DNA of 64,000 bases from Phoronis australis (Eukaryota > Animalia > Phoronida), in NCBI GenBank assembly GCA_002633005.1, contig NMRA01000150.1:740053-804052 (forward strand), given 5' to 3'. The stretch's first letter is position 1; each line of letters opens with the position of its first letter. The notes under the pieces were generated by a model, which saw only the letters and a program-made list of their open reading frames with translations, was not told where the DNA came from and searched no databases. The translations under genes and the position numbers were made by a program. This document shows, piece after piece, positions 9,052 to 47,439 of the stretch.

Positions 9052-9255
9052 TGAATATCGCTGCTAACAAACCAACTCAACAGTCCAGCACACTTGGTAG
9101 TCTCACATCTTCAAAAGCTGTGGATGGGGTCCTGAGACAACACTACACCTACTGTGCTCACACAGTTGAGGAGAAGGACCCCTGGTGGAGAGTGGACCTG
9201 TTAGCTGTGTCCTCTATTTCTTCTGTTGAAATAGTGAACCGACGTGACTGTTGTG
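9052..9255 (+). CDS. Receptor exon: F-type lectin (fucolectin/F5/8C) domain 1, N-half
   Basis: ttatttcag acceptor and G|gtaaat donor; 204 nt, phase 1-1; NIAANKPTQQSS..AVDG..CAHT..DPWWRVDL..VNRRDCCG. Confidence 0.92.
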
Positions 9256-10505
9256 GTAAATTTTACCTTCATTTGAAATAATTTGATGAAGTCACAATTC
9301 ACTAAAACTAATTTGATATACTGACTTAGAGTTGCTATAAATGTGTATTCATAAAAAATAAGTTGTGATTTAGTGTAATGGTGTGGGTCATGAAATTGGT
9401 CTCATGTTGTTCCTTACTCAAATTAGAGCTGATAGCTGGACTTGACCAGTCAGGTCATTGGTTCAGATCAGGCCTAACAAGTTTGTACCATTAGGGTGTT
9501 CTCCTGTTCAGTGACTAGGTACTGATATTATCTAGCTCCTTGGTTTACTGCCGAGAACAGTCTTTTGTCTGGTGTGACAACATGCAGGCCAATTATCTAC
9601 CAAGCTTATTACCAACCACATGTGAACACAGTCAAACCCAGTGCATTGGTACGTTCGGACAGAATAGATTGTTTTAACTTCTGTTGTATTTGGGGCGATT
9701 TTGATGTTTCAAAACCTAAACATGATCAGCATTTGACGAGGAATTCAGAAATGCTATTGGTTTATGTTCGTAAAGTCGGGTGATTTTCGGACGGCCCGCC
9801 ATTTTCGATCAAGAATAAATGTTTCCGAAATGAGTTTTTCATAGTCCACGAAATTCGTACAAGGTCCAAAAACTGTTTTTCAATGATCTTTGAATTTCGG
9901 ACAATGTCATAAAAGTCGGATTTTCGGATAAGGAAAATTTTAGAAACGCTAATTTGGGATCGACACAACTCCCGTGTCACTAAAGCGTTCAACGGATGAT
10001 TACTACTCTATAAGGCTTGAATCTGAGAATTGGTGTAACGGGCTTTGTAATTTTTACCTTGTCTTGACGATGTCATGACCGTTACTCGATTGAGTCTTGC
10101 GTTTAGCTTGTGTTTGGCGCTTTAGCTATGAAAAGAGTCACCGAGTCCCGCATGACGAAAATTTCTGATGAAAATACAAATGGGAAATACACTGAAGGCT
10201 GCAGTTTTTCGTTGTAGCGTAACATGTGCTCTGGTTTAAAGTGTAATTTGCAAGGTCCAATTATGTCAAATTGCAATAATATCTTCAAGGTATTGCTATT
10301 TGGATGTATTTTATTCAAATCATCGTATTATTGTATCTTTAGTTGTTTTAAAAAAGCGAAAAGAAAATGCACGAAAAGTTGACCTTTGACACCGTGACAT
10401 GGTGTTGGGGAACACAAACCAGATCATATCCCACAATGCAGTTCACTGCTATTATATCACAGTACACGAAGAACAAAGACCGTTCAACCTTGGCGTGTTT
10501 TAGCC

Positions 10506-10752
10506 ATGGTGCTTCACTGTGTGTGTGCTAACTATTTTAACACCACCCAGGTGGAAGGCATGAGCCCATTTAAATTCTAAAAAGACAAGCATCTGGCTGA
10601 GTAATGGCAGGTTTTCGTGTGCTCTGCTTGTCTTTTGAAAATGACTGTCAAGTCAGCCATCTGTTGGAGCCGAAATATGCTCCGACCATTTTGAGGACGG
10701 CTGCTTTGACGACAAACACATCGTGATGGTTGAAGCTGGTCTTATAAAAGGG
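10506..10752 (+). pseudogene. THAP domain relic (Kolobok transposase exon 1)
   Basis: MVLHCVCAN..EGMSPFKF*KDKHLAE*WQVFV...ICSDHFEDGCFD with stops and frameshifts, ending at a gtaagt donor. Confidence 0.7.
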
Positions 10753-10890
10753 TAAGTTACCTTGAGAATTTTGATGTCTAATAATTCATGAGGCTTTCGC
10801 AGTGCCTGAACAATAACAATCTTTTTTCACAATCACCGTAGTTCTCAAGTGTTTAAAATCTGTTGTTTTTCCGTGAAAGAAAATGGATCA

Positions 10891-11152
10891 NNNNNNNNNN
10901 NNNNNNNNNNNNNNNNNNNNNNNNNNNNNNNNNNNNNNNNNNNNNNNNNNNNNNNNNNNNNNNNNNNNNNNNNNNNNNNNNNNNNNNNNNNNNNNNNNNN
11001 NNNNNNNNNNNNNNNNNNNNNNNNNNNNNNNNNNNNNNNNNNNNNNNNNNNNNNNNNNNNNNNNNNNNNNNNNNNNNNNNNNNNNNNNNNNNNNNNNNNN
11101 NNNNNNNNNNNNNNNNNNNNNNNNNNNNNNNNNNNNNNNNNNNNNNNNNNNN
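10891..11152. other. Assembly gap (N run)
   Basis: 262 consecutive n. Confidence 1.
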
Positions 11153-12054
11153 CTCATCTAAATTGTACACAGAATAATCACTTGCACAGAATTCGAACAT
11201 TGTCTTGGGAATTTTTGAGTGAGTGGTATAAGCACTCCCTCCAGATTTCCCACTTCCTACTCATGTGCATACTTTTTGTGTTTTCACACCATGTCATAGA
11301 CATCTAAAGCTATTGCATACTGGAGCTTATGGGTTGAGATTCAGTGGTTACTGTGTCGTGTTATTTGATTTCTCATTGAATTACAGTAGAACTTGCTAAG
11401 TTGTATCCAGTGAGACTGAGATATTTCATCAAAGTTAGAGTTATTTGGAGGCGTTACTGCGGAATTAATGCTAACCTTTCTAAAGTTCCCACTGAAGCGC
11501 TACCAATTTAGAAAGTTCTACTGTATAAGAAGAGGGCAGAAGATTCAGTCTCGACTTCAGACTATGGCCCAGATTCAAAACTTTTAATTTTTTATGTAAC
11601 AGCCATACTGTTCAATGTGTTCGCTTCAAGCACACAAACTGGTCTCCAATGAGACAAATTCCTCTGTTTACCTAGGTAAACCATAAGTTTAACTGATGTT
11701 GAATTTAGAGGTTTATAATGTAGTCCTAGTTAAATTACACTTGTCGTGACCATGTTATCATAAGTGTCCAGATTGATGAGCATAAATAAATGCTGCTCGC
11801 TGTGTTAATTATTTACCATTCTGAAACCACAGAAGTCTATTCATGGAATGCCTACTTCGATGTTTGATCTTTCTATGGAATTTGTCACTACAACTTTTTG
11901 CAACTCGTTTGAATTACATAAAACTAGTTCCCGAGTCACAAGTTTTCATAACAGAATACATAGGTCATGTGGAGGAGTTGGCATTCCAGGGCTAAGGCAA
12001 CTGTTGATATCTATAAATGGGTGAAACTTTTAAGAAAATCCTTGGAACTCAAAA

Positions 12055-12436
12055 GTTTTCCTCATTTCCTGGCGGAGGGTAGAAAGCTCAGATGCAGGCT
12101 ACTGCGCATGCTGGAATGACAACAAGGGCAGTTTGTCTTGAGTGACCGTGTACCCATTTTTGGAACTGTCTGTAGGCCACGTGTCAAATCCTTTTATCCA
12201 AGAGTCTGTCATAGCCATCAGGATATTGGCTTTTGGACTGCAACCATGCAGTCTCCAAAACAACACAATTTATGTATACAGGTTTAAACCCCCATGCTCC
12301 ACAATACATTTTTTTCTTCTGTGTTTAGTTGTCACGCTTCATTTCTTCATCAAGTTTTGCAACAACCTTGTCAACCTCTTGGCAACATACTCTTTCTTCA
12401 ACAACTGAGGTTGTCTGACAGTTGCCCCAGGTGCAC
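12055..12436 (-). pseudogene. KolX (P2X7 C-terminal-like Cys-rich protein) relic of Kolobok
   Basis: Minus strand after a cttgcag acceptor: CTWGNCQTTSVVEERVCCQEV..CIVEHG..LETAWLQ..HVAYRQFQKWVHGH..VVIPACAVACI*AFYP. Confidence 0.8.
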
Positions 12437-13344
12437 CTGCAAGATGTGTCAACAATAATACATTATTTCAGTAAACATCAAAATTTCGAATTGAAAAATT
12501 TACCAAGAGTGCCTCTACCAAATTGAGGGGGTCTTCATACAACTTCAGTTTTCAGGAAAATTGATTGAAACATCACAACCTATTTATTTTTTGTACAAAT
12601 TGATCATATATAGTAAAGATATTTACTTTTCATACAAATGAATAGCGCTACACCCAAGGCAGTGGTAGATCATGCCCGGGGATATAGTAATGGACATTAG
12701 TTGTTTGATTTTTTAGCTGACCCTAAGACAAAAGGTAGTTGCCCTGATTCATTGATAGAGGGGACTGTTTTGTATGTAGTCGTGAGACCTCTTCTCCAAA
12801 TCTGAATCCTATCGGCACCCACATACCATTAATCAAACTAGACAATGACAATGGGGCAAACCAACTTGAAAAGCAGTGTTGCCACTCAAAGGGTCGCCCA
12901 TATTTTGAATATTACAGTATACATTAAAACTTCTTGATATGCTATATGGGCAATCACCAATCCAATGGTATGCTCTCTTTACTCTATAGAAACTTTTACC
13001 AGGCGGTTCCTACCCAAGTCGACTCGTAACCAAGCCATGTACCATATTTCATTTATAAATAATGGCAACATTGGGTCAATGTACATCGACATGAAATGGT
13101 TGTTTCCATTTCAAGCATGGCCTTACAAAATAAAACTGTTTTGGAACACATGTGTTGATTGTTATAGGTCCGAGTTGACTTGAGTACGAAAATGAAATGA
13201 CTTGTTCTATAACCTATAGAATTATGCCGTCCCCCAGCACCAAGGTGAGAAAGTCTAAATTATAAAATTGCAATTCTTTCATCCTCTTCTTTACAATTCA
13301 CAGTCGATTATTCCAAAGTGGTTCTCATTCGTTCCCTTGCATAC

Positions 13345-14127
13345 ATTTATTCACTCACTAGTAACACCCAGCTCAGTCTCTGAGAAGTAAGAGACAATTT
13401 TGTTCAATGCTTAATTGTGTAACGGGGGCGGTGTCTACGACCAAGGCGCCCCGATTTTACGAGCCCGGTGTGGACTGAGGGTGATATTGAAAACTAAAAG
13501 TTGGTGAATAACACATATGTTTATTGTAAGAATATATAACTACAATATCTCACACTTACAAGCAATCCAGTTGTTCCATGACTTAGTATCGCAGCGTTGT
13601 GATTTATACAGTTCTCATACACGGGCAAGCCAGTCGCTGATTAATAGTTGTGTGTGCAAGAACGGGGCAATTTGGTTATTCAGATCCGAAAGGTGAGATG
13701 CAATCAAGCTCGGGAGGAGCCCGAGAATTGCTGGGGCTAAACTATTGGCAACCAAGTTCGGGAGGAGCCCGAAAGCTGCACAAACAGTTGCAATTTGGTG
13801 CGAGTGTGTTGTGAATTTTTGCTTCTTGAACTCTGCGACTGGACTCCTCGTGTCTGACAGAGACAAAGCTTAAGTACACAATTTCAACCAATCAGACACG
13901 ATCTGAAGGGCGAGGCCCATAGCTCCTAGGCTCTGACCATATTTGGCCATGTCCAAAGGACTCAACATCATAGGAAAATTCCGTACGTAATACACAGCTT
14001 GACCACTAGAGGGCGCATATATCTTACTTACATAATCATGTCCAGGGCACTCCTGTTACAATTGCATGCCAGTGAAACCCAGGATTCGAACCTGAGTCTC
14101 ACGAGCTCAAACCACTGAGCCACACTG
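13345..14127 (-). mobile_element. tRNA-derived SINE, split by the solo LTR
   Basis: Minus strand A-box TGGCTCAGTGG and B-box GGTTCGAATCC near 14120-14078; the body appears to resume left of 13418. Confidence 0.55.
13418..14060 (-). mobile_element. Solo LTR (643 bp)
   Basis: TGTAAC...GTTACA termini, ATTG 4-bp TSD on both sides, AATAAA on the minus strand, no internal ORF. Confidence 0.8.
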
Positions 14128-16250
14128 TCTACAAATAATCAGAGACCTAACACTTTTTGAGTGATTTGCTAAAATGCAAGAAAATCCCAGTTTTATCACT
14201 GAAACTGGTATTTATCCACGGCTGAAACACGATTCACCAATGGGGATATGGGCGCCTGGGACTGACTGGTAAAGCACCTACTTTTGAATTAAAAAAGACC
14301 AAGTTATAATTCGCGGTTGTAGGATACATATTGATAATATTCTTACCAATCACTAACATCTAATCGCAACTCCTGCGCACCTTCAGCCTGTTGACGTTCA
14401 CAGGACGAACCCGCTGGAAGTGAGTCTTCGGCGACCAGAGAAAGGGCCGTGAACGAGATCGAGGGAGAACGGCTGCACTACAGAAAAGATGTGAACACAT
14501 ATTGTTCCTCTGGGATCTGTCACCTCCACGTCCGAAAGGTCGGAATCATCTGAAAAGTCCACCTGTCCGTCCCTGTATCGTTCAAAGTATTCCTCATCTA
14601 CGCTGCTGTACTCACTTGGACACACAGTGTTCCCTTTGTGTTCCCCAACACCACGTCACAGATCTATGTGTAACGAACGAAAATGGCGCCGTTTCTATTC
14701 TCCGTTACAACGATGGCGTTACAACACCACGGCACTAAATATGTACATAACTTTGTATAGCGGCGTACAATTCAGTTAATGTTAAGAATATAGCAATGAT
14801 AATTATAAATTAGAATTTAGACCATATTGTTGTTCAGATTGGTTTGGACATTGGAATTTCCTCTTTAATTAGACCGTGTTGTTCGACTTCCGACTGTGAC
14901 ATTGAACTTGCACGCCTGACATCAACTTGCGTGTTTACGAAACGTTTTTACTTTAAAACGTCCTGGTCTTTGCAAATGCCCTTGTTAGTGGCTAAAATCT
15001 CCCGACGACGTGTCCGGATTTTATTCTTGACGTGATGAAAATTATTTTTTGTTGAGGCCCCCATACACAATAAGCCACAGGTAAGTCTGTCCGTAGGATA
15101 TCGCGCGTTTAAAGTAGTGTAGATAGTGAACAGCAGCAGCCGAATGAGACGGAGCCAAAGTAAAACTGGTTAAAAATCAAACATAGCCCAAGGCCCAGCA
15201 CTCAGAAAGGGGCGCGGCGCACACGCAATTGTTACAGAGACATTGCATCCCTGTCCTATGTTGTGTAAGTGCTGGTGTGCTATAACACATATCAAAAACT
15301 AATGTACATCCACGTAACCACGTTTCACTACCTTTACAAATTGTCTGTTGCTCTCTGATAAGCATCGCAGATGCAAGAATCTCGCTAAAGAAGATAGTGT
15401 GATCGTGTGCTTCGTTTGCAATGCCTCACCATACGTCTGGACGTCTTCAGTCTAGCGTGTTCGTGAGATTCTCACCCTTGCGCTTCTGGTCGCAGACTAG
15501 GGTAGAGTTCAGTAGCTGTCTTGGGAAATACAAAAATCTAGCCAAAATCACGCTTTCAATTAAAAAACACAATGCCTCACGTAATTTCACGAATTCTTGC
15601 TTTTTAGCGAAGTTCTAGCGTTACGAGCTTTACCCCAGATGTAAACCTAAATAAGATTTAACTTGCGGCGACCCAATTTTGCTTGCTCATCCACTGGTCT
15701 GTGTACTTGTGGTCTTGTTAATTCTCACCCTGTACCGTCTGAGGTACAACACCCTGAACTCCATGGTGTCCCGAGATTAAGATGAATCCCGACAAGGACA
15801 CCGGGACCCTGTGGCACTCTCTGTCTGCGGCGACTAAGAAAATCCTCCACCAATCATTTCGAAAAATGGCAAGTCAGTTGAATCAGATTTGGTAGTCGTT
15901 GCTTCTTTTGGTCCTAGGGGTAGGCTAACAAGAATACAGGACCTGGAGTCCGATGCAACGGGCTTGGAACCTGATAGGTGTTTCCGACCCGGAGTTCCAT
16001 ATCTACTTTCCACTGGACCTTGTCTTCTTGTCCATGTTACCGCCTTCAGTTGATAGTTTTGAGACAAAAAAGAAACGTGATCTTAAACTACAGACCATGT
16101 TTTTTGTATTACTTAATATAGTTTTAGAGGCATTTCAGCTGTAAGTGTGTTTAATTGTGTTGACTGTTACATTGCTAATTATTATTGTTCTATTTTTACC
16201 CGAGGTGATGCCTTACTTGCAGCAAGGGTAAATAATTTTGGGAAGTATTA

Positions 16251-16515
16251 CTAGCGATTTCCGTATATAAGTTGGGGAAACCAAACGTCTTATGTAAAAA
16301 TACACCAGGGCCTATACTCAGCAATGCCGAATACACGAACACAGTATAAATACTGTAGCTCACCCTAATTATATCCTAGTGGGAATAGCATTATTTTTAG
16401 ATTTCAAGCATGCATTTTTATTCTCAGATATGCATCCCAGGTATATTTTAGGGAAAAATTTAAGATACGCAAATTGGCCATATATTCTCCTGGACTTATA
16501 TACGGAAATCTACGG
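16251..16515. mobile_element. Small Tc2/pogo-like MITE
   Basis: Inverted repeat GATTTCCGTATATAAGT (16256) / ACTTATATACGGAAATC (to 16510), followed by TACGG. Confidence 0.5.
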
Positions 16516-19500
16516 TGGATCTTCTTAAACCTGTCAACCATGAAAATTTCATTGAGACAGTTTTGTTCTACTAACATGTTCAACTAACATTCCGTTCATG
16601 CAAGTCGGTCAGTACGTTCGCATTTAAGGCGTTATTGCAACAGGTAAGTGTTGTTTTGATTTTTGTTTGGTGTTTCCATATTTTATTTTGTTATGTATTC
16701 CTGTCTTCAGATAGTCACTGTTATTCTTCAACAACATTTCTGTACTTATAATGAGACTTCAGTAAACTCGCGACTGTTCATACTTTAAATGTTAGCAGAA
16801 GTGTGTAATGTCCATCAGCAGAGACCTGTGGGAAGAACTATTTTCCGTAACTGTAGCAAATATATGACGAAATGAAATGAAAACGGTCGACATAGATGAA
16901 TTGTAATTGGTTAAATATACATTAAGAAAGAAAATTAAGTATATAAATAGTAGAATGGTACTTGAATTGCCTGGTTTACGTCCTTCATGAGTTCACCTGT
17001 CCCAAATTGAGTGCTTTCGTTTTTCTTTTCAGGTCGTCACTAGTCGATTCTTCTAACAGTCGTGATCTGCCCAGTATCCTATTGTATCAACGTGCGCAAC
17101 AACGGTCTTGGCAGGGGGTTGCACCTAGTAGACTCCCTTAGAATTAGTGGCGCAAAATCGACATTGGTGTGCAACAGGAGGCCGAGGGGGGGGGGTGGCG
17201 GCGTAAATTAGTAGTGACTGACGGAGACTGAGCTGCGCGAAATTGGTGACGACCGTGGACGGCGCTAAACTGGTGACGACCAGAAGAAACGGCCCTGTTA
17301 TCTTCCACGCAGATTACCAGAAAATGTTAACGATTATCAGTTTCATTTCATCCACAAACAGATTTCACAAGTCAGAGTTTTCACTGTGGTTAAAAACGTA
17401 AGCGAACCCAGATGTGTTAGGTCACCTCAGTTGCATGAAGACGCGCCAGTGTATCACTGAGTTAACATCGGGCGTTTCAAAGGCTGTGGATGAGAAAGGT
17501 TTTAATTGTAAAAAAAAAACGGTTGGGTGAATTTGATGTTGGTAGCATTTGAAATTGCATTTGCTTTCTAGACAACGCCCTTATATATACAATATGTTAG
17601 TTAATCGTGTCTTCAGCCGCGCAGCACTGTACTAGTCGACGCATTCCCATCGTTTGCCGCAGTAGGCCTAAACATGTAGAACGACAGCGCTTCTTCAACA
17701 ATTCAGACGACTACCAGGACGACAAATGGGGATCACGAGTCGATGAGAAACTACTCGTTTTATTATCATGATTGTCTTTGTAATCTATTTTGGGTAATTG
17801 TTCAATCGAAGTTTTCATGTTGAAACTGAGCTTTCAGTTAATATGGAAATAAACGTGTCAGAGTTAACTTGCGTTTCGGTTTGTAACCAGCAGACAATGC
17901 ATGGATACGTTTAATAAACATAAATATATGCTAATGTTCTTGTCATTGTTCGTCACTTTCTTCATTGAACTCGTTCCCACATCCATTACTGTTACGTTTA
18001 ATGCAAAATTCATTAAAATTGAGAAAGCGCATGTTTTGATGGTCGGGAACTCTCTTTGTGCGCCGAATACGCAAGTCCAGCTTTTTATTGGGAAACCATG
18101 CGTCGACAGCGCAAACTCGACATTTTTTATTGAGGAAACGCATTTTGTACAAAAGAGAATCGGTTATCTGTAACGTTTCATGTGCGTCAACAACGCAAAC
18201 CAGACCCGCTCATTGAAAAGCCCATATTTGTCACCAGGAAGACTCTTCACAACGCAGCCCGATATTTCAAGTGAGATAGCGCAGTTTTGAAAAGATTCCG
18301 TCACTTACCGAGAACGGTTTTTGAGCATCGTCAATGCAAGCCGAATATTTCATATTGAGAAAGCACATCTTTGAAAAGAAGAACCAACTCTTGTTGGGAA
18401 CGGTCTTTGTGCGTCGACGGCGCACATTTCTTAATTGGGAAAGCCAGATTTTCAAAAATTAATCGCTCAGACCATTTGAGTCTCATTTACCTGCAATTAT
18501 ACTGCTATCAAATGACCGAGCCAGCAATGTTGATACTACGACCGCTCATCGAAATAATGTACACCCACGAAATTCGGACACTAGCGGAAACCCAAATTTG
18601 GAGGTCCGCTAAATTCGGACACCACAGAAATGATGTTTCGCGAGATTCGTCCAAGAATGAATTTTTTCTATTGGAATTAATTTTCAGTGTCCGAAAATCA
18701 CGCGACTTCACCGTCAGATCAGGCTCAACAAGTTTGTACCATTAGGGTGTTCTCCTGTTCAGTGACTAGGTACTGATACTATCTAGCTCCTTGGTTTACT
18801 GTCGAGCACAGTCTTTTGTCTGGTATGACAACATGCAGGCCAATTATCTACCAGGCTTATTACCAACCACATGTGAACACAGTCAAAACCAGTGCGTTGG
18901 TACGTTCGGACAGAATAGATTGTCTTAACTTCTGTTGTATTTGGGGCGATTTTGGTCTTTCAAAACTTAAACATGATCAGCATTTGACGAGGAATTCAGA
19001 AATGCTATTGGTTTATGTTCAAACATTTATAACTCAACTTTTTTTTTAACAGCACAGCCCAGTCATGCTAGGTAGGATCATATGCGAGATTAGCGCAATT
19101 ATCGAACAAAAGAGAGCTGACCCTCCCACCATAAATGCCAGAATGTACTTAATCACTCAGTACGGGCTACAGTGGTCATACGCCCAACTTGTTGTTGTGC
19201 TGTTCAACCGAACAAGTTGGACTCAACGGGAGTTTGTCATACTTCTACCAGTTGCCTTGTCTTAGCTGTCAATTTTATGCGTGAAGCATGGTCTGTAACA
19301 TTAAAGGCGAAGGCAACCTTTTTCCATGTCATTTTGAGCTAAAATAAGGTTGGTTGGTTATCCTAGACATATTTTCCACTTAATTACAGCTTTTCGTAAT
19401 TTTATTAAGTACTCGTCCTCTCTTCCGGAAGTGACGTTTTAGGAGGCAAGCATTTCGCGCCAATTTCTTTTCATATAGTCTGACTGTGAGAGCTGCCGAG

Positions 19501-19569
19501 TCAGTCATTGTTCTACCTCGGTTGTGTTAAGTTCCGTCGTCGTTAGCTTTCATTTACTAGTCAGTCAAT

Positions 19570-20115
19570 ATGCCACACTGTTGCTGCGTACCAGGATATA
19601 CTAATTATCGGCTCACGCGCGCTTTGGGAGTACCTTTGCATCGCTTTCCGATGGATGACACGCTTCGCCGTACTTGGCTCCTTCGTGTGAAGAACGCAGT
19701 GTTACCCGTCCACGCAACGTACAAAGCAGTGGAGAATTACCGTGTGTGTGGCAAGCACTTTCTGCCGTCCGATTACGAAAGGGATTTGTTCGCTGAACTG
19801 ATGAAGGTCCCTGCGAAGCAACGTCTGAAGAAGGTTGTCATTCCGTCTGTGTTGATTCCTGGCAGTGCCCCGTCGCCACCCTCGAGAAGTGCGTGTTTGA
19901 AGCGAGAAACCTCGCGAGCTGTGGCCAGTACAGTGACTGGAGCCAGGGGAGGCACTACATCTGCTGTCACCCGTGCCTCCGAACGTACCCCACAGCGTGC
20001 AATTCCTGGAACCAGTATTGATTCGCTCTGTGCTGTTTTCTCCAGCCCAGAGCCTCTAAGCAGCCCTGCAGCGATATTGAGTAGTGGGAGTGATTACAGG
20101 CTCGACACCCAGTGA
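19570..20115 (+). CDS. THAP zinc-finger ORF (N-terminus of Kolobok transposase); continues by frameshift into a C2CH finger (20115-20350)
   Basis: MPHCCCVPGY..LHRFP..LRRTWL..RVCGKHF..DY..LKKVVIPSV; next frame KFIVDLSKVLELFRRCQVC..WECVAGH..W. Confidence 0.8.
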   Translation: MPHCCCVPGYTNYRLTRALGVPLHRFPMDDTLRRTWLLRVKNAVLPVHATYKAVENYRVCGKHFLPSDYERDLFAELMKVPAKQRLKKVVIPSVLIPGSAPSPPSRSACLKRETSRAVASTVTGARGGTTSAVTRASERTPQRAIPGTSIDSLCAVFSSPEPLSSPAAILSSGSDYRLDTQ

Positions 20116-20359
20116 AGAGGACAGTTCGTCGTCCGGTGAACAGATCGGTGAGCCAAACTTTGATAAGTTTATTGTGGACTTGTCTAAAGTGTTGGAGCTA
20201 TTTAGAAGGTGCCAGGTGTGTGGCGAGGGAGTCACACGACACGATGTAAGCAGTTTGAGTACTCAGGTCACCATCCAGTGGGAGTGTGTCGCGGGACACT
20301 CTGGCAAGTGGGACAGTTGTTCCTCTGTCCGTGGTATGCCGGAGGTCCACTTAACCATG

Positions 20360-20658
20360 TCCAGTAGTGACTTGGCCTTGTTGAACTCTGAACAGCACAA
20401 GCATTCCATTGAGGTAGGCATAACAACGCACACAGTGCATTTGCACCAAGATGTGTCACCACGTCTGTCCTCAGTAGCCGCCTCGTTTCTCTCAACAGCT
20501 GTCTGTGCCTGTGCGTACTCTGGCTCGTTATACTCGGGCTCAAACATGTACCCACCCACTGAATGTCCGTGAAAAAATTCCTCGTCACCACTGCTGTGAA
20601 CAAGGTCTCCGTCACGCACACTACTGTCACTGTGATACGGGTCACCGACTCCTGCCAT
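20360..20658 (-). pseudogene. KolX N-terminal part, truncated by the internal deletion
   Basis: GYMFEPEY...WCKCTVCVVMPTSMECLCCSEF, the typical KolX/P2X7-C motif. Confidence 0.8.
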
Positions 20659-22073
20659 TTTCAGGTTACAACACGCTAAACAATCCCTAAATCCAACGTA
20701 GTTGAGGTCTCCACTAACCTATCTTGCCGCAGAGTACTCGCTGATGGAAAGTGGTGGCAACAATTGTTGAAAAACAGCACAAAACAAAAGTAGAATAGAA
20801 CAGATTCGCACGGTAAAGTCAACGCAAAACCAAGTGGCGGGAAACGCTTGCCTCCTAAAACGTCACTTCCGGAGTAGCGGACGAGTAATCTATAAAATTG
20901 CGAAAAGCTGTAATTAAGTGGAAAATATGCCTAGGATAACCAACCAACCTTATTTTAGCTCAAAATGACATGGAAAAAGGTTGCCTTCGCCTTTAACATT
21001 CTGGGAGCTCTTTACATGTCAAGAAACTAAACCAGGGCAGAGGATTGGTTTTATTTTACATTAACAATTAACACATGTATGATCACAGTTATTTGAAATG
21101 ACACTAGGACCTTGTAAAGTCTTCTTTGTGATTTTATACTGCTAGGTGTCGTTCTTTGACTCGACAATGGGTAGTCACCCAAGGATCATTCTTAACTTTT
21201 ATAATCTTGTCAACACAACATTAGGATTTTTTAAGGGCTCCAACTGCATACAAGTCTGTTAAGTCGATTGTTTACAATGAACTCTTACTGTTCTTGTGAT
21301 TCTGCATATTGCTTTAACTGAAGGCTTTCAATATTATAATATGATCGAAGGTGGGAGCTTTTGTTGTGGGTGCCAAAGTTAACAATTAGTGAATGGTACA
21401 AGTTGGGTATTATGAATACACTGTTACTTAACTCTTAGCAATAAAAAGGCTACTAAAACACAACTTGGATATATGATTGGTACAAGGTTTTTGCCGTGAA
21501 GGTTTTCCATACCATTAAAACCTATTGTTTGAAAAAAATGTTTTTTATTGAAATTTACTGAAGTTGTCTCTATCATCTCGCTCATTTTGCACACACAAGG
21601 TTGGACGGTTACCTTAAAACTCCACGCAGCGCAGTTTCAAACTGATTTAAGCCAACTGCATGGCAGAATGGGATCCTAGAAGTTATACACTTTTATTTGA
21701 TCCCATTAACAGCTACATGAAATTTCAACAGTAAATGTGTTTTTTTGCCTTTGCCACTGATTGCATGTTGTGTGAAGATTTTTTTCAGTTTTTGTTTAGT
21801 GCTCCTCCGCGAAGGGTTAGAAACTCACGATTTATGTTTCCCATTCTCGTTTTTGGGGTTGGTCTTATAGATAGCCTCCGCGAATTACATGTATCTAAAA
21901 ATAAACAAAACACCAAAATGAACTTAGGCTAATTTGGGGGTGGACCCTTTCACCACTGAGTTGACCAAAAGACGTCACTGGTGTATGCCCTTTTCATGGC
22001 CTCTAGACCGATTTGTTGTGTTTTCACTGACTTGCTGTTTACACTTGATGTCTGTCTGTTCTTATTTCAATAG

Positions 22074-22301
22074 GTGATCGGCTCCATAACTTTGTTGTCA
22101 AGGTAACCAACATCTCAAGCTTATCTGCTCCATACCAACGGTGTAGTTTCTACCCAGGAAAAGCTAGCACAGGAGCTACACTACGTATAAACTGTAGTCC
22201 TCATCCAGTGTTTGGGCGCTATTTGTATATACAGATTGTCGATCGACTTGTGGCCCTCACGCTGTGTGAAGTAGAAGTTCATGGTGTTGTGATTTCTTCC
22301 G
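22074..22301 (+). CDS. Receptor exon: F-type lectin domain 1, C-half
   Basis: tcaatag acceptor and G|gtgagt donor; 228 nt, phase 1-1; GDRLHNFVVKV..C..YPG..INC..GRYLYIQ..LTLCEVEVHG (missed by the ORF track). Confidence 0.92.
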
Positions 22302-22555
22302 GTGAGTTGTTGCATACTTGTCAGCAGAAAAGTATCAAGGTTGAGATGAATTAAATAAACAAAAGTGAAAATTTGTGATCCATTACAGGTATTTCATAGT
22401 CAAATTGTAGAGCCAATACACTATGTTTTGCACATCAAGCACAATGCTCATTCAACTCGCTTTCAGAATATCTGAGATCATTTAAATTTCTTGATAGGGT
22501 GACTCTGGGTATGGTAGAATGTTTAACTTTGGGGAAAGGTACCTCAAATGTCATA

Positions 22556-22935
22556 CTGTACACAGTGTTCTTACACATGTTGTACAATGTGATCTGTACA
22601 CAGTGATCTTACACATGTTGCACAATGTGACCTGTACACAGTGTCCTTACACATGTTGTACAATGTGTTGCTGTACACAGGGTCCTTACACATGTTGTAC
22701 AATGTGATCTGTACACAGGGTTCTTACACATGTTGTACAATGTGTTGCTGTACACAGTGTCCTTACACATGTTGTACAATGTGACCTGTACACAGTGTCC
22801 TTACACATGTTGTACAATGTGTTACTGTACGCAGTGTTCTTACACATGTTGTACAATGTGTTGCTGTACACAGTGTCCTTACACATGTTGTACAATGTGA
22901 TTTGTACACAGTGTCCTTACACATGTTGCACAATG
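22556..22935. repeat. Minisatellite, 38/41-bp unit, ~10 copies
   Basis: CTGTACACAGTGTCCTTACACATGTTGTACAATGTG(AC/TTG) repeated. Confidence 0.95.
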
Positions 22936-23348
22936 CTTACTTTATTTCCACTCATTTATACACTGATCCGATGTAACAATTTCATAAAATGTTAATTATA
23001 TGGTGCTAGGCCTCTTCTAAAATGTAACGAGTTGTTACATTTTCATATTTTGGCCAGAATTTGTTGTATCTCTTCGGGAAAAAATGACCACAACAAAATT
23101 TTTCATGGAGACTTCAATTTCGGAAGCCAATTTGATTAAAAAATCACCCGTTACTCCACAATAGTTTGATTTATTTCAGTCAGTGTTTTATTGTCTTGAA
23201 GTCATCGCTGATGCGGTAATTGATCTGCTCCACACACAAGGAGCTAGATCAAAGTTTCTGATTCTGATGGGTTCTGTCTACCAATTTAGTTGTAAAAATC
23301 TATTGACGAAGTACATCTCACCGCTGTATGGGGCAAGTTTCTTAGAGG

Positions 23349-24193
23349 CAGTGTGCGTCACAGATATAATGTTCATGCTGCCAACGAAACTCCTTATAAG
23401 GCAACGAGATGAACTCGGTCAATCTCAATGGGCTGATGGCACCATAAGTAACCAATAATATTCATCTAAGTGAGAAATACACAAACAACAACCAATGAGA
23501 CCCATCAAAAGCAGTTTCATGCAAATGTTTTTGAGACTGATATCGGTATAGTCTGTGTCGTGGGGCCCACGGAATATTGAAAAATGTGCTACGAAAACCA
23601 AAATTCTGGCCTCCCAGAAGACAGCCGTTACATAAACTGCTGCGCAACGGTGTCTTTGCTGACAAAATCTCCTTCGCAGAATTAACCACTGAGCCTTAAT
23701 TATTGTCAATGGGTCAGTTGTCCGCCAAACACAAAAAGGTGACAACAAAAGCGAATAGGCCTAACGCAATGATCAGCAACTTTCGTGCCCACTGCACTTC
23801 CAGTGAGCAGGTAGTGGATTAGGCATATAGGTAGCACTGGGCCTTTGTTTAAATTGACTAGTTGTTCGAGATGAATTGAATGAAAAGATGAGGGATTATT
23901 TACACGCTGCGTTACACCATAAATAGATTAGCGGCCCGGTCTGCCACTTGAGTGAGACCGGTGATTAGGCTGTCCACAACTGACCACTTCCTTAGCCTTT
24001 TTTCAGTTTTATTGGGCTATGGCCAGTTGCCGTCAAGAGTAATTTGAACCAGTGAAGACCTTATTAACGACGACGACGCCTTTTTTACAAAGTAGTCCCT
24101 ATATTTTTAAAATGGTCGCGGGATTTTTAAACAGGACGCTGGATTTTTAAACAGGACGCTGCGACACGTTAAAAGTGGTCGTGGAGAACACTG
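23349..24193. mobile_element. Possible hAT-like non-autonomous insertion (unit A only)
   Basis: CAGTGT.. start and ..GGAGAACACTG end; absent from unit B; no clean TSD. Confidence 0.3.
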
Positions 24194-25733
24194 AACCCTT
24201 TTGCTACATTGCATAAAAAACTTGCGTCGCATATTTAAAACCATCGCTGATTTCAACGTTGGCCGTTTTTGTTCCATACAACACTTTTAATGAAACCTAG
24301 TACCAATCCCTTACTGTATTCTTTTAATCATATAGGGGGTCAGTTCCACATAAAATTGTTGGATGTTTCGTTTGTCCGTTACCAGCTGTTTTAATGACAC
24401 GGTGACTGCAGCCATAGCCGACTAGCTGCCAGTTCTTGAAAAAATGCCTGCCTCCAGAGTTCAACTAAAGGAAATTTTTACTAAGTTACACATCATCGAG
24501 GAATGAGCCAGAGTTCTTTGAGAAGGAAATTTGTTTTCAGCTACAGACAAAAAATGATAACATGGTGGACTCACGTTTAGATGCAAGTCCCAAGTAAAAG
24601 ATTACAGTCTGAATTCAGTTCTTCATGGCAAACTACAGAAGGATATAGTTATATTACAAACACTTCCGAGCTTGCCAATAGTTCAAAAATAATCAATTTT
24701 TGAAGTTGGTGAATTCTATAGAAGAGGTTTATGAAAAGTGACTCCTAAAAGGGTGTTTTCTCACAGCTAAAGAATACTCTCCAAAATTTTACGAAATTAT
24801 TACATGCACCCACATATCCACATTTCCATCATCTCTGTCTAGGCATCTGCAGTCTGATACTGTATTTACAGGATCTTAGCAAAATTTGGAAAATATGTTC
24901 CTGTGATGCTAGAGAAAGAAAATGGATTTTGGACTGATTCAGTCACTGCTGTGCCCTCTAGTGGCAAATTTGTTTTTCATAAAATTTGGCAAATAAGTTT
25001 CTATTACAGAGACAACTATACCTTTTTATTTTTTGATGGATTTGACGTATTCTGTTCCACCTAGTGACCATTTTTAAGATTTTCAAGTGTTTTTTTGTCA
25101 TCCACCTCTCTATCCGCCAATCCTGCCAAAAACGTAACGAAAGTTGGCATATATGTTGTATTGAAAAGAACACGACTGTCCTTGATTTTGGTTAGGTCTG
25201 GGTGACATCCCATGATGAAAACCTGTTTTTATCTTTAATCCCTTTAATCTTTGTCAAATATGGCAGTTTTTTTACCTATGAACATCACTCAAACAATGTA
25301 TTCTCCCAAGAACTATGTGGTAGTAGCAGGTTTGAGACACAAGCGACATTTGATTGTGTTTTTTGTAAATGAAGTATATTTCATCACTGGGGAACATGCG
25401 AGGGTGTCCCAGGACTTTTGAGTCCGGGTTGGGAAATCTACATGACTGTAAACTCGATCGAGCCATTCAGCTAAAAACAACTTGGGTGATAATTGAATTT
25501 CTATAGCCTGGCCATATATTACTGACACTCAGAAAATGTCATCTCCACTGACTCTGACTTGGGATCTCTCAGAGTCTATAGAAATAAGAACCTTGGCGTG
25601 ACCGCACGGCACCACTTGCGACATTGTGGAATCCATGTTCGTATCACCTCTTAGACCACAATCCTGAACTTTCCAGAATCTACGGAATCATTCAACAAAC
25701 AAATATACTCGAGAATGTTCCAGACCACTGGTT

Positions 25734-25904
25734 TCTTTATTAAAAACCGGACGATCGCCGCACAAATAAAAAAGTTCATGTTCAATTCAACGTTTCGTCT
25801 TTTCATTAGATATCATCAGGATCATATTTACAACAATTTATTTACAACTTTTTTATTTGTGCGGCGATCGTCCGGTTTTTGATCTTTGTGGCCAAAAACT
25901 GATT
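25734..25904 (-). mobile_element. Penelope-like pLTR fragment with a 35-bp inversion and a minimal hammerhead-like core
   Basis: Insertion absent from unit A; perfect inverted repeat 25742-25776 / 25846-25880; minus strand CTGATGA-tatct-aatgaaa-agac-GAAACGTT (25819-25789). Confidence 0.6.
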
Positions 25905-26588
25905 TGGTTCTATATTTGTCACTAATATGCTGGAACGTGTTAGAATGTTGTCTAGTGTGCTATTGTAAACAACTTACATCATCACTTGACCTCTTGGGTC
26001 ATGTCAATCAAGCGTGAGCTTCTAGTAAACAAATAGAGAATAGCAAAATAAAACATATAGAAATAAAGCAAATGTCAGTCTTCTTCGAACCCTTTGTTTG
26101 CCGTTGCTCTACTCTGTACAAAATGGTGGTTTAAATTGTAGATCACTAAAGATTATTCCAGAGGTAGCAACTTCAAGTAAAATTACATCTCAAACGTTAT
26201 GTTCTGATCATGTAGTTTTTTAGCAAAAAGCATAGGCTTTCTGATTATGAAATGTGGTTATTATTTTTGTTTTTATTGTTATTGTCATTTCAGCAAAATG
26301 TAAAACTCGCTCCCTCTCCCTCCCTTGTTCTACACCGGCCTCTCCATCTCTATTCATCCTTCCCTCCCACCTTTCCTTCTACTCACTGATGTCAAATTTA
26401 AAATGATTGTTCCTGATATTTCTTCAGACTTGCCATTGTCTTGTATGTTACCAAAATGTGTTTTACATGGTTAACTGCTAATTTATATTTCTCTCTAAGC
26501 TTAATGACCATTCTTGTCAAAGACATTGTCCCCTCAGTTTTATTGTTTCCCTAAAAATAACTTCTGCATTATTTTGGTTTTATTTCAG

Positions 26589-26792
26589 TGAATATCGCTG
26601 CTAAGAAACCAACTCAGCAGTCTAGCATATATGAAGGTCTCACATCTTCAAAAGCTGTGGATGGGGACCTGAGACAAGACTACATCTACTGTGCTAACAC
26701 ACTTGCTGAGAAGGACCCCTGGTGGAGAGTAGACCTGTTAGCTGTGTACTCTATTTCTAATGTTACGATAGTGAACCGAGATGGCTGTTGTG
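26589..26792 (+). CDS. Receptor exon: F-type lectin domain 2, N-half
   Basis: Paralog of 9052-9255; 204 nt, ag/gtaagt, phase 1-1; NIAAKKPTQQSS..CANT..DPWWRVDL..NRDGCCG. Confidence 0.92.
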
Positions 26793-27788
26793 GTAAGTTT
26801 TACCTTCATTTGAAATAATTTGATGAAGTCACAATTCACTAAAACTAATTTTAATATACCGACTTAGAGTTGCTATAAATGTGTATTCATAAAAAATAAG
26901 TTGTGATTTAGTGTAATGGTGTGGGTCATGAAATTGGTCTCATGTTGTTCCTTACTCAAATTAGAGCTGATAGCTGGACTTGACCAGTCAGGTCATTGGT
27001 TCAGATCAGGCTCAACAAGTTTGTACCATTAGGGTGTTCTCCTGCTCAGTGACTAGGTACTGATATTATCTAGCTCCTTGGTTTACTGCCAAGCACAGTC
27101 TTTTGTCTGGTATGACAACATGCAGGCCAATTATCTACCAAGCTTATTACCGTTAGGACAGAATAGATTGTCTTAACTTCAGTTTTATTTGGGGTGATTT
27201 TGGTCATTCAAAATCTAAACATGATCAGCATTTGACGAAGAATTCAGAAATGGTATTGGTTTATGTTCAAACGTTTATAAGTCAACTTTTAGTTTTAACA
27301 GCAAAGCCCAGTCATGGTAGATAGGAACTTATGCAAGATTAGTGCAATTATCGAGCAAAGGAGAGATGACCCTCCAACCATAAATGCCAGAATGTACTTA
27401 ATCACTCAGTACAGGCTACAGTGGTCATCTGCCCAACTTGCTGTTGTGCTATACAACCGAACAAGTTGGACTCAACGGGAGAATGCCGTAATGCAACAAG
27501 TTGGCTTGTCTTAGCTGTCAATGTTATGCCCGAAGCATGGTCTGTAACATTAACATTCTGGGAGCTCTTTACATGTCAAGAAACTAAAGCAGGGCAGAGG
27601 ATTGGTTTTATTTTACATTAACAATTAACACATGTATGATTGCAGTTATTTCAAATGACACTAGGACCTTGTCAAGTCTTCTTTGTGATTTTATACTGCT
27701 AGGTGTCATTCTTTGACTCAATAATGGGTAGGCACCCAATGATCAGTCTTTTGTAATCTTGTCAACACATCATTCACGGATTCTATAA

Positions 27789-30080
27789 AGGCCAAGTATG
27801 GTGCCAAAATGACTATTTTTACATTTAAAATACATTTATTGATGAAAAATATCAAAATACTTTGTCATAGCATACCCCAGTCGTTAATGAAGTAGGCCTT
27901 CGACAATACAGGGGCACGAACCCCATTTAGAGTAAAAAAAACTTGGGACAACGCACGCGCCAATCGAAGTCAATGACATCATCGTTACCACGAATTTGGC
28001 TTTCACTGTGTCCCCATAGTATTGGAATCAGCGATGACTGGCTATTTCATTTAGTGCAAAATACGTGGAAAATCAAGGAAAACACAGTAATTTTTCATTT
28101 CATGTCAGTAAATATTAAAATTGATCAAAACCATTACCTTTAGAGTTTTTATTCATTTATTTAGCACATATGCGGGCCCGTATGGGAATCCCCTGGAGTG
28201 TGACTGGGGCCGTCGAAACAGCCGGAAAAACAAAACGCTTCGTCTGAATTGTTATCAGCAATTTCACAATGTTTATTATAAAGAGTAATTTGCTTGATAC
28301 AAAAACTTTAGTGTTAGGAACTTTGCATTCATGTCTCTTTGAAGCCGAAGGTGTGAATGCTGCACGATTCCAATACGGGCGGCTGTCGAGTGTGTGTCCC
28401 TTATTGGTATAGGCAACAATAGGCCGTTTAATTTGGTGCAAAATACTTGGAAACGTTACTACACATATTGGCTTGATCTTTTCGTACAAAGCAATTATAA
28501 TCAAATTCGTTGAAAACTTTATATTAGAAACTCAATTTTCAAAATAAGTCGCCTTGAAATGCTGCAACCTATAGCCTGATTGCCACCACTCGGTCAACCT
28601 AAAAAAATTTTTTAATAGCAACGCAACATTGTGAGTGTCTAATAAATTAAAACTACGAAATAAAGTCTGGATTGCATGAAAACACACCCAATTATAAGAA
28701 TTTGTAATCAATTGAACGTTTTAAATTCAGTATCAGAATTCCGTTAGGCCTATGGGAACGACCCAGTCACACAGAACATTCAGGATTTGGGCCGGATTCC
28801 CTATACTCTTGGCCGAAACAGTAACACGAAACGTCGAAGTGCACACTGTATATTTTTTGTAGCCAGCCAGCTAGGTGTTTGAAGAATATCACTAAAATAC
28901 AGCTAGGTAACACTGTGAATTGAGCTCTGTTAAACTACGAAATATCATACAGGCCGGGTATGAGTTGTGTTAGTCACCTCGTTGTGAAACTTCTATCGCA
29001 GAGCCAACGACGGACAGCCGGGGTGCATGCAAAATGTTTGAGACAATTCGGACACTCACCTTGCCTGTTGCCAGTGGTTCACGGGAAGAACAATCTAATA
29101 CACATCATTTTCTAGCATTACTCTACGCCTTTTGAATTGTGTAACAAAGAAAGTCGTTGTTTTGAAAACAGTACGCTCGTGACAAGCACACGCGTCGTAC
29201 TAAAATTTTGCGACTTCTTATGGGACATGATGATAGCTTCGCAGTAGTAAAGTTTGTTCTAAATTCGGTTTGCTGGTCTTAAAAATGCTAAAAACTTGTA
29301 ACAAAATGAAACCAGTTCTGACAATTTGTTGTGACAGTACGCAACCTCGTGGCAGCAAAGAACAGTTGATAGAAGAATAAACTGGGGAGGGGGGGGAGAA
29401 ACTGTTCAGGTCAGGTGACGTAATGGCTAAACGCCGACACAAGAGTGCACTTCAATTTTAACAGTAGATGAGTGGTAGAACAATAATTCTTCCAACACGG
29501 TAAATAATTTGGTTTACTCAAAGATTGGTGCAGCTTTTAATGACACTATTTCTGAGTCAGATTTTATTGAGCAATTTTTACCCACATCGACGCGAAGCTG
29601 TAGATTTTGTATAGGGCTACAGCTTTGCACCAAGCCTAAAACAGATCTTGCCGATCAGGAAAGTTTGTCGCCAGGCCTTGTCGTTGATACAAATCTATTC
29701 CACGCACGGCACACGACATGATCGGTGGGGAAGTTGTGCAAATGTATCACATCGTCGCTGACATTGCTACAACCGCACACCATGCAAAGAGGCATTTTAG
29801 CCCAGAGATCGACAAGTACAGAACGTCCAAGAAGTAGCACTCAGCTCTTACGCAGTGTGGCTTCCTAATAATTTTGTGGCCACGATGATGTCATATGAAC
29901 CACTTTACACTGATTGGTTGAGATTTTTTTGGGGTACTCGAAGGGGCTACGAATTATGAGCGGTGTAATTTGCGTTGCAATTAATTTCTTTCCGTGGTAT
30001 GTAAGAAGCAAAAACATTTTTTATTAACAATACATACGTTCCTGGTGTCAAAAAAGTGTTTTAGCTGCTGGACGATGTCT
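27789..30080 (-). mobile_element. Kolobok-like THAP element relic (unit B only)
   Basis: Inserted at the TTAA that is empty in unit A (ggattttTTAAggg, ~21230); AG..CT ends; minus strand THAP MPLCMVCGCSN..LHNFPTD..RAWNRFVSTTR (29795-29655). Confidence 0.65.
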
Positions 30081-30436
30081 TTAAGGATGCAACTGCATAC
30101 AAGTCTGTTAGGTGCATTTATACCCTACTACACTGTTGTGCGTTTGCCATTGATTGCATGTTGTGTGAAGATTTTTTCAGTTTTTGTGTTGTGCTCCTCG
30201 GCGAAGGGTTGAAAACTCATGATTTATGTTTCCCATTCTCGTTTTTGTGGTTGATCTTATAGATAAACAAAACACCAAAATGAGCTTAGGCTAATTTGGG
30301 GGTAGACCCTATCACCACCGAGGTGACCAAAAGGACGTCGCTGGTATATGCCCTTTTCATGGCCTCTAGACCGATCAGGTGTGTTTTCACTGACTTGCTG
30401 TTTACACTTGATGTCTGTCTGTTCTTATTTCAATAG

Positions 30437-30664
30437 GTGATCGGCTGCGTAACTTTGTTGTCAAGGTAACCAACATCTCAAGCCTATCTGCCCCATCCCA
30501 ACAGTGTAGTCACTACCCAGGACGTGCTAGTACAGGAGACACACTACGTATAAACTGCAGTCCTCATCCAGTGTTTGGTCGCTATTTGTATATACAGATT
30601 TTCGATGAAGCTGGGGTCCTCACGCTGTGTGAAGTACAAGTTCATGGTGTTGTGATTTCTTCTG
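30437..30664 (+). CDS. Receptor exon: F-type lectin domain 2, C-half
   Basis: Paralog of 22074-22301; 228 nt, phase 1-1; GDRLRNFVVKV..GRYLYIQIFDEAGVLTLCEVQVHG. Confidence 0.92.
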
Positions 30665-37974: not shown

Positions 37975-38250
37975 GAACAATCTTACCTAACAAAGAGTGC
38001 AAGATTGACAACTTTGGACAAACTTATTCTGGTCTAGTTAAGACCACTCAAGGCAACAACCATTGTCAGCGCTGGGACTCACAGACTCCAAATACGCATG
38101 GTATAATCACAGAAAAGCTACCAGATGATACACTACAAAGTGCTGCCGACTATTGTAGAAACCCCAACAGAAGCCTAAGTGGACCGTGGTGTTACCATGC
38201 TACTGGGAGTGGTAGATGGAGTCACTGTGACGTTTACAGATGTCCTGTTT
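37975..38250 (+). CDS. Receptor exon: kringle domain
   Basis: ECK..GQTYSG..T..CQRWDSQTP..H..ADYCRNP..GPWCY..WSHCDVYRC (6 Cys); tttag acceptor, T|gtaagt donor, phase 1-1. Confidence 0.93.
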
Positions 38251-40869: not shown

Positions 40870-40872
40870 GTA

Positions 40873-47356: not shown

Positions 47357-47439
47357 CACCCTCTCCTGTACAAAACTTGACTGGTACATCAGCACGACAA
47401 GGTAGTTCTACAAAAGCCACTCTAACACTTACTTGGGAT
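47357..47439 (+). CDS. Receptor exon: FN3, first half
   Basis: ttccttag acceptor; PSPVQNLTG..TLTLTWD; gtaagt donor, phase 1-0. Confidence 0.85.

What the first reader, a model, noticed from the sequence alone, without database searches (positions are those of the whole stretch)
9052..30664. Duplicated F-lectin modules diverge faster in exons than in introns, and the fucose-binding motif differs between copies
By-eye comparison: the N-half exons differ at ~26 of 204 nt (16 aa changes, only 3 purely synonymous codons), and the C-half exons differ at 12 aa with ~7 synonymous codons. The adjacent intron (9256-9460 versus 26793-27000) has only a handful of differences. Changes cluster in loops (TLGS/IYEG, HYT/DYI, VEE/LAE, VDRLVA/FDEAGV). 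Copy 1 keeps the canonical F-lectin motif H-x26-R-x-D-x4-R; copy 2 has H>N and RRD>RDG. Inference: diversifying selection on ligand specificity, reminiscent of oyster bindin F-lectin repeats.
Basis: partly seen in the sequence, partly recalled or inferred. Interest (0 to 1): 0.8.

Follow-up and report, generated by a model that had tools for sequence, protein, structure and literature searches.

The report
Hypervariable sugar-binding loops on membrane receptor
An animal cell-surface receptor gene carries a tandemly duplicated fucose-lectin-type module whose two copies, and versions read from other samples, differ mostly in the loops predicted to surround the sugar pocket, likely because selection favours new ligand specificities while recombination keeps the nearby introns alike.

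Summary
The counts are right: exons differ at 51 of 432 nt (28 aa, 10 purely synonymous codons). The quoted intron (3 of 205) is the most similar block; pooled flanking introns differ at 5.8%, and two distal blocks at 15-20%, more than the exons. But 17 of 28 changes fall in the 35 binding-face loop positions (dN/dS about 3, against 0.55 elsewhere), and a partition-free site model agrees (p=5e-4); that test survives multinucleotide mutation but is borderline under strongly patchy rates. Reads from other samples show splicing, both His and Asn at the fucose histidine, further loop residues and a mosaic exon. The modules head a spliced type I membrane protein: F-lectin, F-lectin, kringle, degenerate F-lectin, unnamed domain, FN3s, PTP-type juxtamembrane FN3, transmembrane helix. 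No catalytic domain lies in the window. Verdict: a real duplication with loop-restricted diversifying selection under gene conversion, a pattern known from oyster bindin, eel fucolectins and primate opsins, here on an RPTP-like receptor, not a bindin. Sugar specificity and function are untested.

The parts
7923..25283 (+). Duplication unit 1 (N1 exon, 12.8-kb intron with insertions, C1 exon, flanks)
   Evidence: self-BLAST chain
25281..33154 (+). Duplication unit 2, head to tail; 3-base microhomology (AAC) at the junction
9052..9255 (+). F-type lectin 1, N-half exon; His36, Arg63, Asp65, vicinal Cys pair; calcium motif ends in Val
   Evidence: Pfam F5_F8_type_C_2 E=1.8e-9; phmmer to FBP32 3cqo E=4.8e-19 and eel lectin 1k12 E=2.5e-10
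22074..22301 (+). F-type lectin 1, C-half exon; Arg70, CDR5-type loop VDRLVA
   Evidence: phmmer to 3cqo E=2.5e-7; RNA reads on it
26589..26792 (+). F-type lectin 2, N-half exon; Asn36, R-D-G, canonical calcium motif, added N-V-T sequon
   Evidence: spliced to C2 in 3 of 3 RNA runs
30437..30664 (+). F-type lectin 2, C-half exon; loop FDEAGV
37975..38250 (+). Kringle exon
   Evidence: Pfam Kringle E=1.1e-18; in frame
38538..39322 (+). Third, distant F-type lectin domain (exons 38538-38762 and 39104-39322); fucose triad not kept
   Evidence: Pfam E=1.6e-9; translation
40651..43265 (+). Two likely exons (about 40651-40869 and 43008-43265) of an unnamed domain
   Evidence: acceptor scan; no Pfam hit; no Atlas hit at 0.9 or more for the first exon
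45950..55625 (+). FN3-type exons (near 45950, 47357, 47628, 52002, 55356; borders approximate)
   Evidence: Pfam fn3 at 47553-47936 (E=9e-5) and 52002-52313 (E=7e-11); the frames at 45933 and 55356 had no hit; splicing not tested
59659..59938 (+). Juxtamembrane FN3 of receptor tyrosine phosphatase type (end approximate)
   Evidence: Pfam Fn3_PTPRU E=1.6e-16, PTP_tm E=2.6e-6
62342..62432 (+). Transmembrane exon (Val/Ile-rich run of about 20 residues)
   Evidence: sequence and translation

Best explanation
A two-exon F-type lectin module was duplicated head to tail at the front of a membrane-receptor gene with an RPTP-like ectodomain, and the copies differ mainly in the loops predicted to line the sugar pocket, likely because diversifying selection retunes ligand recognition while gene conversion keeps neighbouring introns alike. 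Shown: duplication, open frame, splicing, excess of amino-acid change in the loops, extra loop residues in other samples. Inferred: selection as the cause, conversion or unequal exchange as the reason for patchy intron similarity, fucose binding by copy 1 and altered or lost fucose binding by copy 2, and signalling through a cytoplasmic phosphatase. The likely role is recognition of variable foreign or self glycans (innate immunity, symbiont, gamete or self/non-self recognition); the data do not choose among these.
For: Loops: 22 nonsynonymous vs 1 synonymous difference (pN 0.284, pS 0.036); rest pN 0.065, pS 0.143; binomial within loops p=0.008. Partition codon model omega 3.0 vs 0.55, LRT p=0.002; loops with landmarks in the review only, p=0.018; partition-free M2a vs M1a LRT 15.3, p=5e-4, about 27% of sites at omega about 7. 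Null simulations with 0, 6 and 15% double mutations reached it in 0 of 346, 0 of 320 and 1 of 361 runs; introns show no excess of adjacent mismatches, 9 vs 8.1 expected. Among columns that vary in 368 homologous domains, 16 of 28 loop positions changed vs 10 of 59 others, p=2e-4; other loops 5 of 36, p=0.002. Reads: N2-C2 splice in 9, 9 and 24 reads; H36N letter in 5 of 163, 2 of 162 and 21 of 38 reads; letters found in neither window copy at codons 15, 28, 35, 38, 39 and 126; two DNA contigs read D-D and G-G at codons 64-65 where the window has R-D and D-G; one contig has copy-1 letters at CDR1 and copy-2 letters further on. Intron heterogeneity p=0.024 among 8 proximal blocks, 3e-23 with the distal two.
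Against: Whole-domain dN/dS 0.86-1.07, bootstrap interval 0.46-1.96. Loop borders were drawn after I had seen the changes, and those of CDR3 and CDR5 are recalled; padding by 1, 2, 3 residues weakens the LRT to p=0.019, 0.040, 0.087; a data-blind entropy partition gives p=0.036 and 0.057. With strongly patchy rates and no positive selection, 38 of 468 and 16 of 320 simulations reached the observed LRT (1 of 368 with milder patchiness). Only two phased sequences exist; read tables are unphased, mix alleles with paralogs, and hide rows (46, 2443). The 50-base flanks next to the exons are more alike (3 of 200) than the rest of the introns (p=0.002), the opposite of the gradual decay expected from linkage to selected sites; I cannot explain this. 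No catalytic domain is in the window and no binding was measured.
Confidence: 0.6

Rival explanations
1. No positive selection: surface loops are merely unconstrained, and patchy conversion with alleles or paralogs leaves short divergent tracts that mimic it.
For: Overall dN/dS about 1; changed sites sit in variable columns, p=7e-4; patchy-rate nulls reach the LRT in 5-8% of runs; a more distant paralog is expressed in two RNA runs.
Against: Divergent tracts should bring synonymous changes, yet the loops hold 1 against 22 nonsynonymous (p=0.008); equally variable positions off the binding face change far less (10 of 59 vs 16 of 28).
Confidence: 0.2
2. The exons were overwritten through a spliced (cDNA) template from a divergent allele or paralog, so divergence stops at the splice sites.
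For: Divergence runs to the exon ends and drops to 3 of 200 in the 50-base flanks; synonymous divergence outside the loops is 12.5 of 87 vs 5.8% in introns, p=0.005.
Against: Fourfold sites alone are not significant (6 of 59, p=0.13); cDNA conversion tends to remove introns (general knowledge), and both are kept; it would not by itself explain the loop bias; splice-signal constraint may account for part of the flank similarity.
Confidence: 0.08
3. The two copies are alleles of one module, wrongly assembled in tandem.
For: Intron divergence of about 6% is near the 4.2% between two nearby 307-base duplicates; the window has an N gap at 10891-11152; no laid contig spanned either stretch.
Against: RNA reads join a C-type exon to an N-type exon (16 reads in X5; 9, 5 and 6 in X7), so tandem modules exist in transcripts; the junction is clean, gap-free, with a 3-base microhomology. 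A real duplication made by exchange between two divergent alleles remains possible and fits the best explanation.
Confidence: 0.06
4. Copy 2 is redundant and decaying after duplication.
For: It lost His36 and Asp65; Asp is kept in 299 of 368 homologous domains.
Against: Frame, cysteines and core are intact and spliced; omega outside loops is 0.55; copy 2 holds the family-consensus residue at several sites where copy 1 deviates (Y14, D26, Y53); His is kept in only 195 of 368 homologues.
Confidence: 0.06

Closest known systems
Oyster (Crassostrea gigas) sperm bindin F-lectin repeats
   Same: Tandem F-type domains, each split by a central intron; positive selection at sites around the fucose pocket; some repeats lack the His-Arg-Arg triad; recombination adds diversity (PMC5712786, section 12 read in full).
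   Different: Bindin is an acrosomal protein with one to five repeats; here the repeats head a kringle/FN3/transmembrane receptor. Testis expression and repeat-skipping splicing were not shown here.
Eel fucolectins (AAA, eFL-1 to 7) and striped bass FBP32
   Same: Closest solved relatives; isoform variation concentrated in CDR1 and CDR2 (PMC5712786, passages).
   Different: Soluble serum lectins that keep His52 and CDR4 strictly; here His and the CDR4 residues themselves vary.
Primate L/M opsin tandem genes (selection against gene conversion)
   Same: Exons more diverged than introns between tandem copies, explained by conversion in introns and selection in exons (PMC3924837, passages; PMC3213168, abstract).
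   Different: Opsins are separate genes with fixed, stable differences; here the repeats lie within one gene and the loop residues also vary among samples.
Receptor-type tyrosine phosphatases (PTPRU/PTPRJ-type juxtamembrane region)
   Same: FN3 repeats, Fn3_PTPRU/PTP_tm domain, one transmembrane helix.
   Different: F-lectin and kringle domains instead of MAM/Ig; catalytic domain not seen. None of 28 long F-lectin-like proteins scanned (of 150 listed) had an FN3 or phosphatase family at E<=1e-5 among the rows shown.

Membership tests
F-type lectin domain | Sequence similarity to solved F-type lectins | tested here: met
   N1 vs 3cqo E=4.8e-19, 1k12 E=2.5e-10; C1 vs 3cqo E=2.5e-7; copy 2 is 80% identical
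F-type lectin domain | Fucose triad motif H...R-x-D-x4-R/K, copy 1 | tested here: met
   H36, R63, D65 align to AAA His52, Arg79, Asp81; R70 matches Arg86 by spacing across the splice junction. The review prints the spacer as 24, but His52 to Arg79 is 26, as here.
F-type lectin domain | Fucose triad motif, copy 2 and third domain | tested here: not met
   Copy 2: N36, R63, G65, R70; third domain lacks His, Asp and the last Arg. Deviant domains are described within the family; 169 of 368 homologous domains keep the full triad.
F-type lectin domain | Cation motif h2DGx (x = N, D, S) | tested here: inconclusive
   Copy 2 A-V-D-G-D fits; copy 1 ends in Val; that residue binds calcium through its backbone oxygen in AAA
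F-type lectin domain | Vicinal Cys pair and two clamp disulfides | tested here: met
   C66-C67, C34/C132, C91/C108 in both copies, aligned to AAA
F-type lectin domain | Jelly-roll F-type fold | tested here: inconclusive
   The spliced domain was not modelled; a proxy relative folded poorly (pLDDT 57) and was not used
F-type lectin domain | Binds L-fucose | not testable with these tools
   needs a binding assay
Oyster bindin | Acrosomal protein made of F-lectin repeats, without a receptor stalk | tested here: not met
   In-frame kringle and third domain follow; FN3, PTP-type domain and transmembrane exon lie downstream on the same strand
Oyster bindin | Sperm-restricted expression | not testable with these tools
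   tissue of the RNA runs is not given
Receptor tyrosine phosphatase | FN3 stalk, PTP-type juxtamembrane domain, single transmembrane helix | tested here: met
   splicing of these exons to the lectin exons was not tested
Receptor tyrosine phosphatase | Cytoplasmic catalytic PTP domain | not testable with these tools
   the window ends 1.5 kb after the transmembrane exon and no whole genome is held

The most novel reading that the evidence does not exclude
A polymorphic glycan-sensing signalling receptor: F-lectin modules that are copied, shuffled and hypervariable between individuals sit on a tyrosine-phosphatase receptor and give each animal its own sugar-recognition code for self/non-self, symbiont or gamete discrimination.
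Probability: 0.2. Interest if true: 0.72.

Novelty: new variant of a known kind. Interest (0 to 1): 0.45.

Why it matters
Hypervariable F-lectins are known as soluble or acrosomal proteins. Finding the same loop-level diversification, including turnover of the fucose-binding histidine, on an RPTP-like membrane receptor would tie variable glycan recognition directly to intracellular signalling in an invertebrate-type genome. The two copies are 80% identical and differ mostly at the pocket, a ready pair for testing which residues set F-lectin specificity. The evolutionary pattern itself (exons above introns under conversion) is established, which limits the surprise.

Tried and rejected
Whole-domain and per-exon dN/dS by NG86, LWL85, YN00 and ML: none significantly above 1. 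Adjacency test of clustering: not significant. Homologue searches among longer proteins: none for the C exon among 38 candidates, none for the juxtamembrane exon among 260, 6 for N1 at 46-50% identity, fish and a hemichordate; no annotated copy of this gene was found, which is weak evidence. A single-sequence fold of a proxy fucolectin was too poor to define loops. No whole genome is held, so copy number and the cytoplasmic part stay open. No RNA holder was listed by words; raw reads were laid instead. No RNA read matched N1 at 99% or more (0 of 322, 295, 89); the samples are probably other individuals, so this says nothing on N1 expression. A signal-peptide-like exon seen before an N exon in 20 reads of one run was not found in the window. 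A secreted form by read-through after the C exon (open frame to 22354) was rejected: RNA depth in that bin is 0.05-0.25. CpG decay does not explain the synonymous excess: by eye 1 of 10 synonymous changes is at a CpG. The two distal intron blocks have repeat-like DNA depth and are not a safe neutral clock. Three look-ups of earlier findings returned nothing. Literature searches for this architecture or for this pattern in F-lectin receptors listed nothing relevant by title; the primary bindin papers and the family-wide domain survey cited in the review were not read.
Full report
Observation. The window is animal-type DNA (40% GC, spliced exons, transposon remains). Self-comparison shows a head-to-tail duplication, 7923-25283 and 25281-33154, with a 3-base microhomology at a gap-free junction. 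Each unit holds a 204-nt N exon and a 228-nt C exon with AG/GT borders in phase 1-1.

Exon against intron. The quoted intron block (3 of 205) is the most similar of ten colinear blocks, which run from 1.5% to 19.7%. Six flanking blocks pooled differ at 135 of 2332 (5.8%) against 51 of 432 (11.8%) in exons, p=1.4e-5. With all ten blocks the figure is 280 of 3649 (7.7%), p=0.003. The two distal blocks exceed the exons but have repeat-like depth in a DNA run. The excess is real, about 1.5- to 2-fold.

What the domains are. Both N exons match Pfam F5/8-type families. The best solved relatives are striped bass FBP32 and eel agglutinin. By that alignment and the residue numbers in the review PMC5712786 (passages and section 12 read), copy 1 has His36, Arg63, Asp65 and Arg70 at His52, Arg79, Asp81 and Arg86. 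Copy 2 has Asn36 and R-D-G. Copy 2 fits the calcium motif and copy 1 does not. Against 368 homologous domains cut from the 156 proteins fetched, copy 2 holds the consensus at positions 14, 26 and 53 and copy 1 at 36 and 65; 169 of 368 keep the full triad. Both copies therefore carry derived changes.

The host gene. N1, C1, N2, C2, a kringle exon and a third, degenerate F-lectin join in one open frame of 527 aa. Downstream on the same strand lie an unnamed two-exon domain, FN3 exons, a juxtamembrane domain of receptor-phosphatase type (Fn3_PTPRU E=1.6e-16) and a transmembrane exon. The catalytic part would lie beyond the window, and no genome is held. That these downstream exons belong to the same transcript is inferred from order, strand and phase.

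Selection. Whole-domain dN is 0.125-0.130 and dS 0.12-0.14; dN/dS is 0.86-1.07 with a bootstrap interval of 0.46-1.96. The average hides two classes. I defined the five binding-face loops as 35 of 143 positions: CDR1, CDR2, His and CDR4 from landmarks in the review, CDR3 and CDR5 from recall, all after seeing the data. They hold 17 of 28 changes (p=4e-6), with 22 nonsynonymous and 1 synonymous difference; the rest has pN 0.065 and pS 0.143. A partition codon model gives omega 3.0 against 0.55 (p=0.002), weakening to p=0.019, 0.040 and 0.087 as the loops are padded by 1, 2 and 3 residues; landmark-only loops give p=0.018; data-blind entropy partitions give p=0.036 and 0.057. A partition-free site mixture beats the neutral model (LRT 15.3, p=5e-4). 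Simulated nulls with double mutations reached that value in 0 of 346, 0 of 320 and 1 of 361 runs (the concern is raised in bioRxiv 10.1101/165969, seen as a search listing). Nulls with patchy rates reached it in 1 of 368, 38 of 468 and 16 of 320 runs, so this test alone is borderline. The lack of synonymous change inside the loops (p=0.008) and the contrast with equally variable positions elsewhere (16 of 28 vs 10 of 59) argue against patchiness alone.

Conversion. Synonymous divergence is about twice the flanking intron value (p=0.008; p=0.048 for unchanged-residue codons and p=0.13 for fourfold sites), and intron blocks of one duplication differ in divergence (p=0.024 for the eight proximal blocks). 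This is the pattern described for tandem opsins: conversion in introns, retained differences in exons (PMC3924837, passages; PMC3213168, abstract). One feature does not fit: the 50 bases beside each exon differ at only 3 of 200, less than the more distant intron (p=0.002). Splice constraint or exon-limited conversion could be involved; it is unexplained.

Reads. Eight runs of one species label were listed; I laid three RNA runs twice and two DNA runs once each. Exon reads come from one strand, consistent with a + strand gene, and the N2-C2 joint appears in 9, 9 and 24 reads. Loose ends show C-type exons spliced to N-type exons in at least three junction variants and a signal-peptide-like exon before an N exon, so tandem modules are transcribed and more variants exist than the window holds. 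The H36N letter is seen in 5 of 163, 2 of 162 and 21 of 38 reads, so it is no assembly error. Letters absent from both window copies occur at codons 15, 28, 35, 38 and 39 and 126; codons 64-65 read D-D and G-G in two DNA contigs. One contig carries copy-1 letters at CDR1 and copy-2 letters at codons 26 and 53. Limits: tables are unphased and truncated (40 rows shown, 46 and 2443 hidden), a more distant paralog supplies most reads in two runs, the C1-N2 joint itself was not among the 15 joints shown, and the DNA sample does not match the window exactly, so the assembly was not checked directly.

Mechanism. Most likely (0.6): duplication of a symmetric two-exon module, exchange between copies and alleles that homogenises introns and shuffles exon parts, and selection for different residues around the pocket, giving a receptor with several specificities. 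By the eel structure, copy 1 would bind fucose and copy 2, lacking the histidine, would bind it less or prefer another ligand. Rivals: relaxed loops with patchy conversion (0.2), cDNA-templated exon conversion (0.08), false duplication (0.06), decay of copy 2 (0.06).

Comparison and novelty. It evolves like oyster bindin and eel fucolectin isoforms but is not a bindin. Two F-lectin reviews do not use the word phosphatase (PMC12221842, passages only), six searches listed no paper on this architecture, and none of 28 scanned relatives showed FN3 or phosphatase families. Subscription papers and supplements with domain surveys were not seen and may list it. I rate it a new variant of a known kind, interest 0.45.

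Noticed in passing
window 9770-18711: An 8.9-kb insertion bounded by 23-base inverted repeats and flanked by a 300-base direct repeat (9463-9762, 18714-19013, 96%); holds the N gap 10891-11152. Could come from recombination between two insertions of one transposon on different alleles.
   Followed up: partly
window 19301-20996: Element with 171-base inverted ends, TTAA on both sides and a THAP-domain frame (19561-20115, E=3e-10); copy 2 has the empty TTAA site near 27548. Resembles a Kolobok-type transposon (name recalled).
   Followed up: partly
window 40651-43265: Two-exon extracellular domain with no Pfam hit and no Atlas hit at 0.9 or more for its first exon.
   Followed up: partly
window 38267-38576: Three tandem copies of the acceptor and first codons of the third lectin's N exon, giving possible alternative acceptors.
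   Followed up: no
window 26759-26767: S57N with E59T makes an N-V-T glycosylation sequon in copy 2 only; reads vary at codon 57.
   Followed up: partly
window 9100-9210 (reads laid there): A more distant F-lectin paralog supplies most reads in two of three RNA runs and few or none in the third; similar high depth of divergent reads lies on the third lectin domain in the same two runs.
   Followed up: no
window 33593-34239: A GT-AG splice joint in 56, 38 and 99 reads inside a high-copy repeat in the intron before the kringle exon.
   Followed up: no
window 2900-5460 (+) and 49270-50980 (-): Broken frames that look like LTR-retrotransposon pol and integrase by eye.
   Followed up: no
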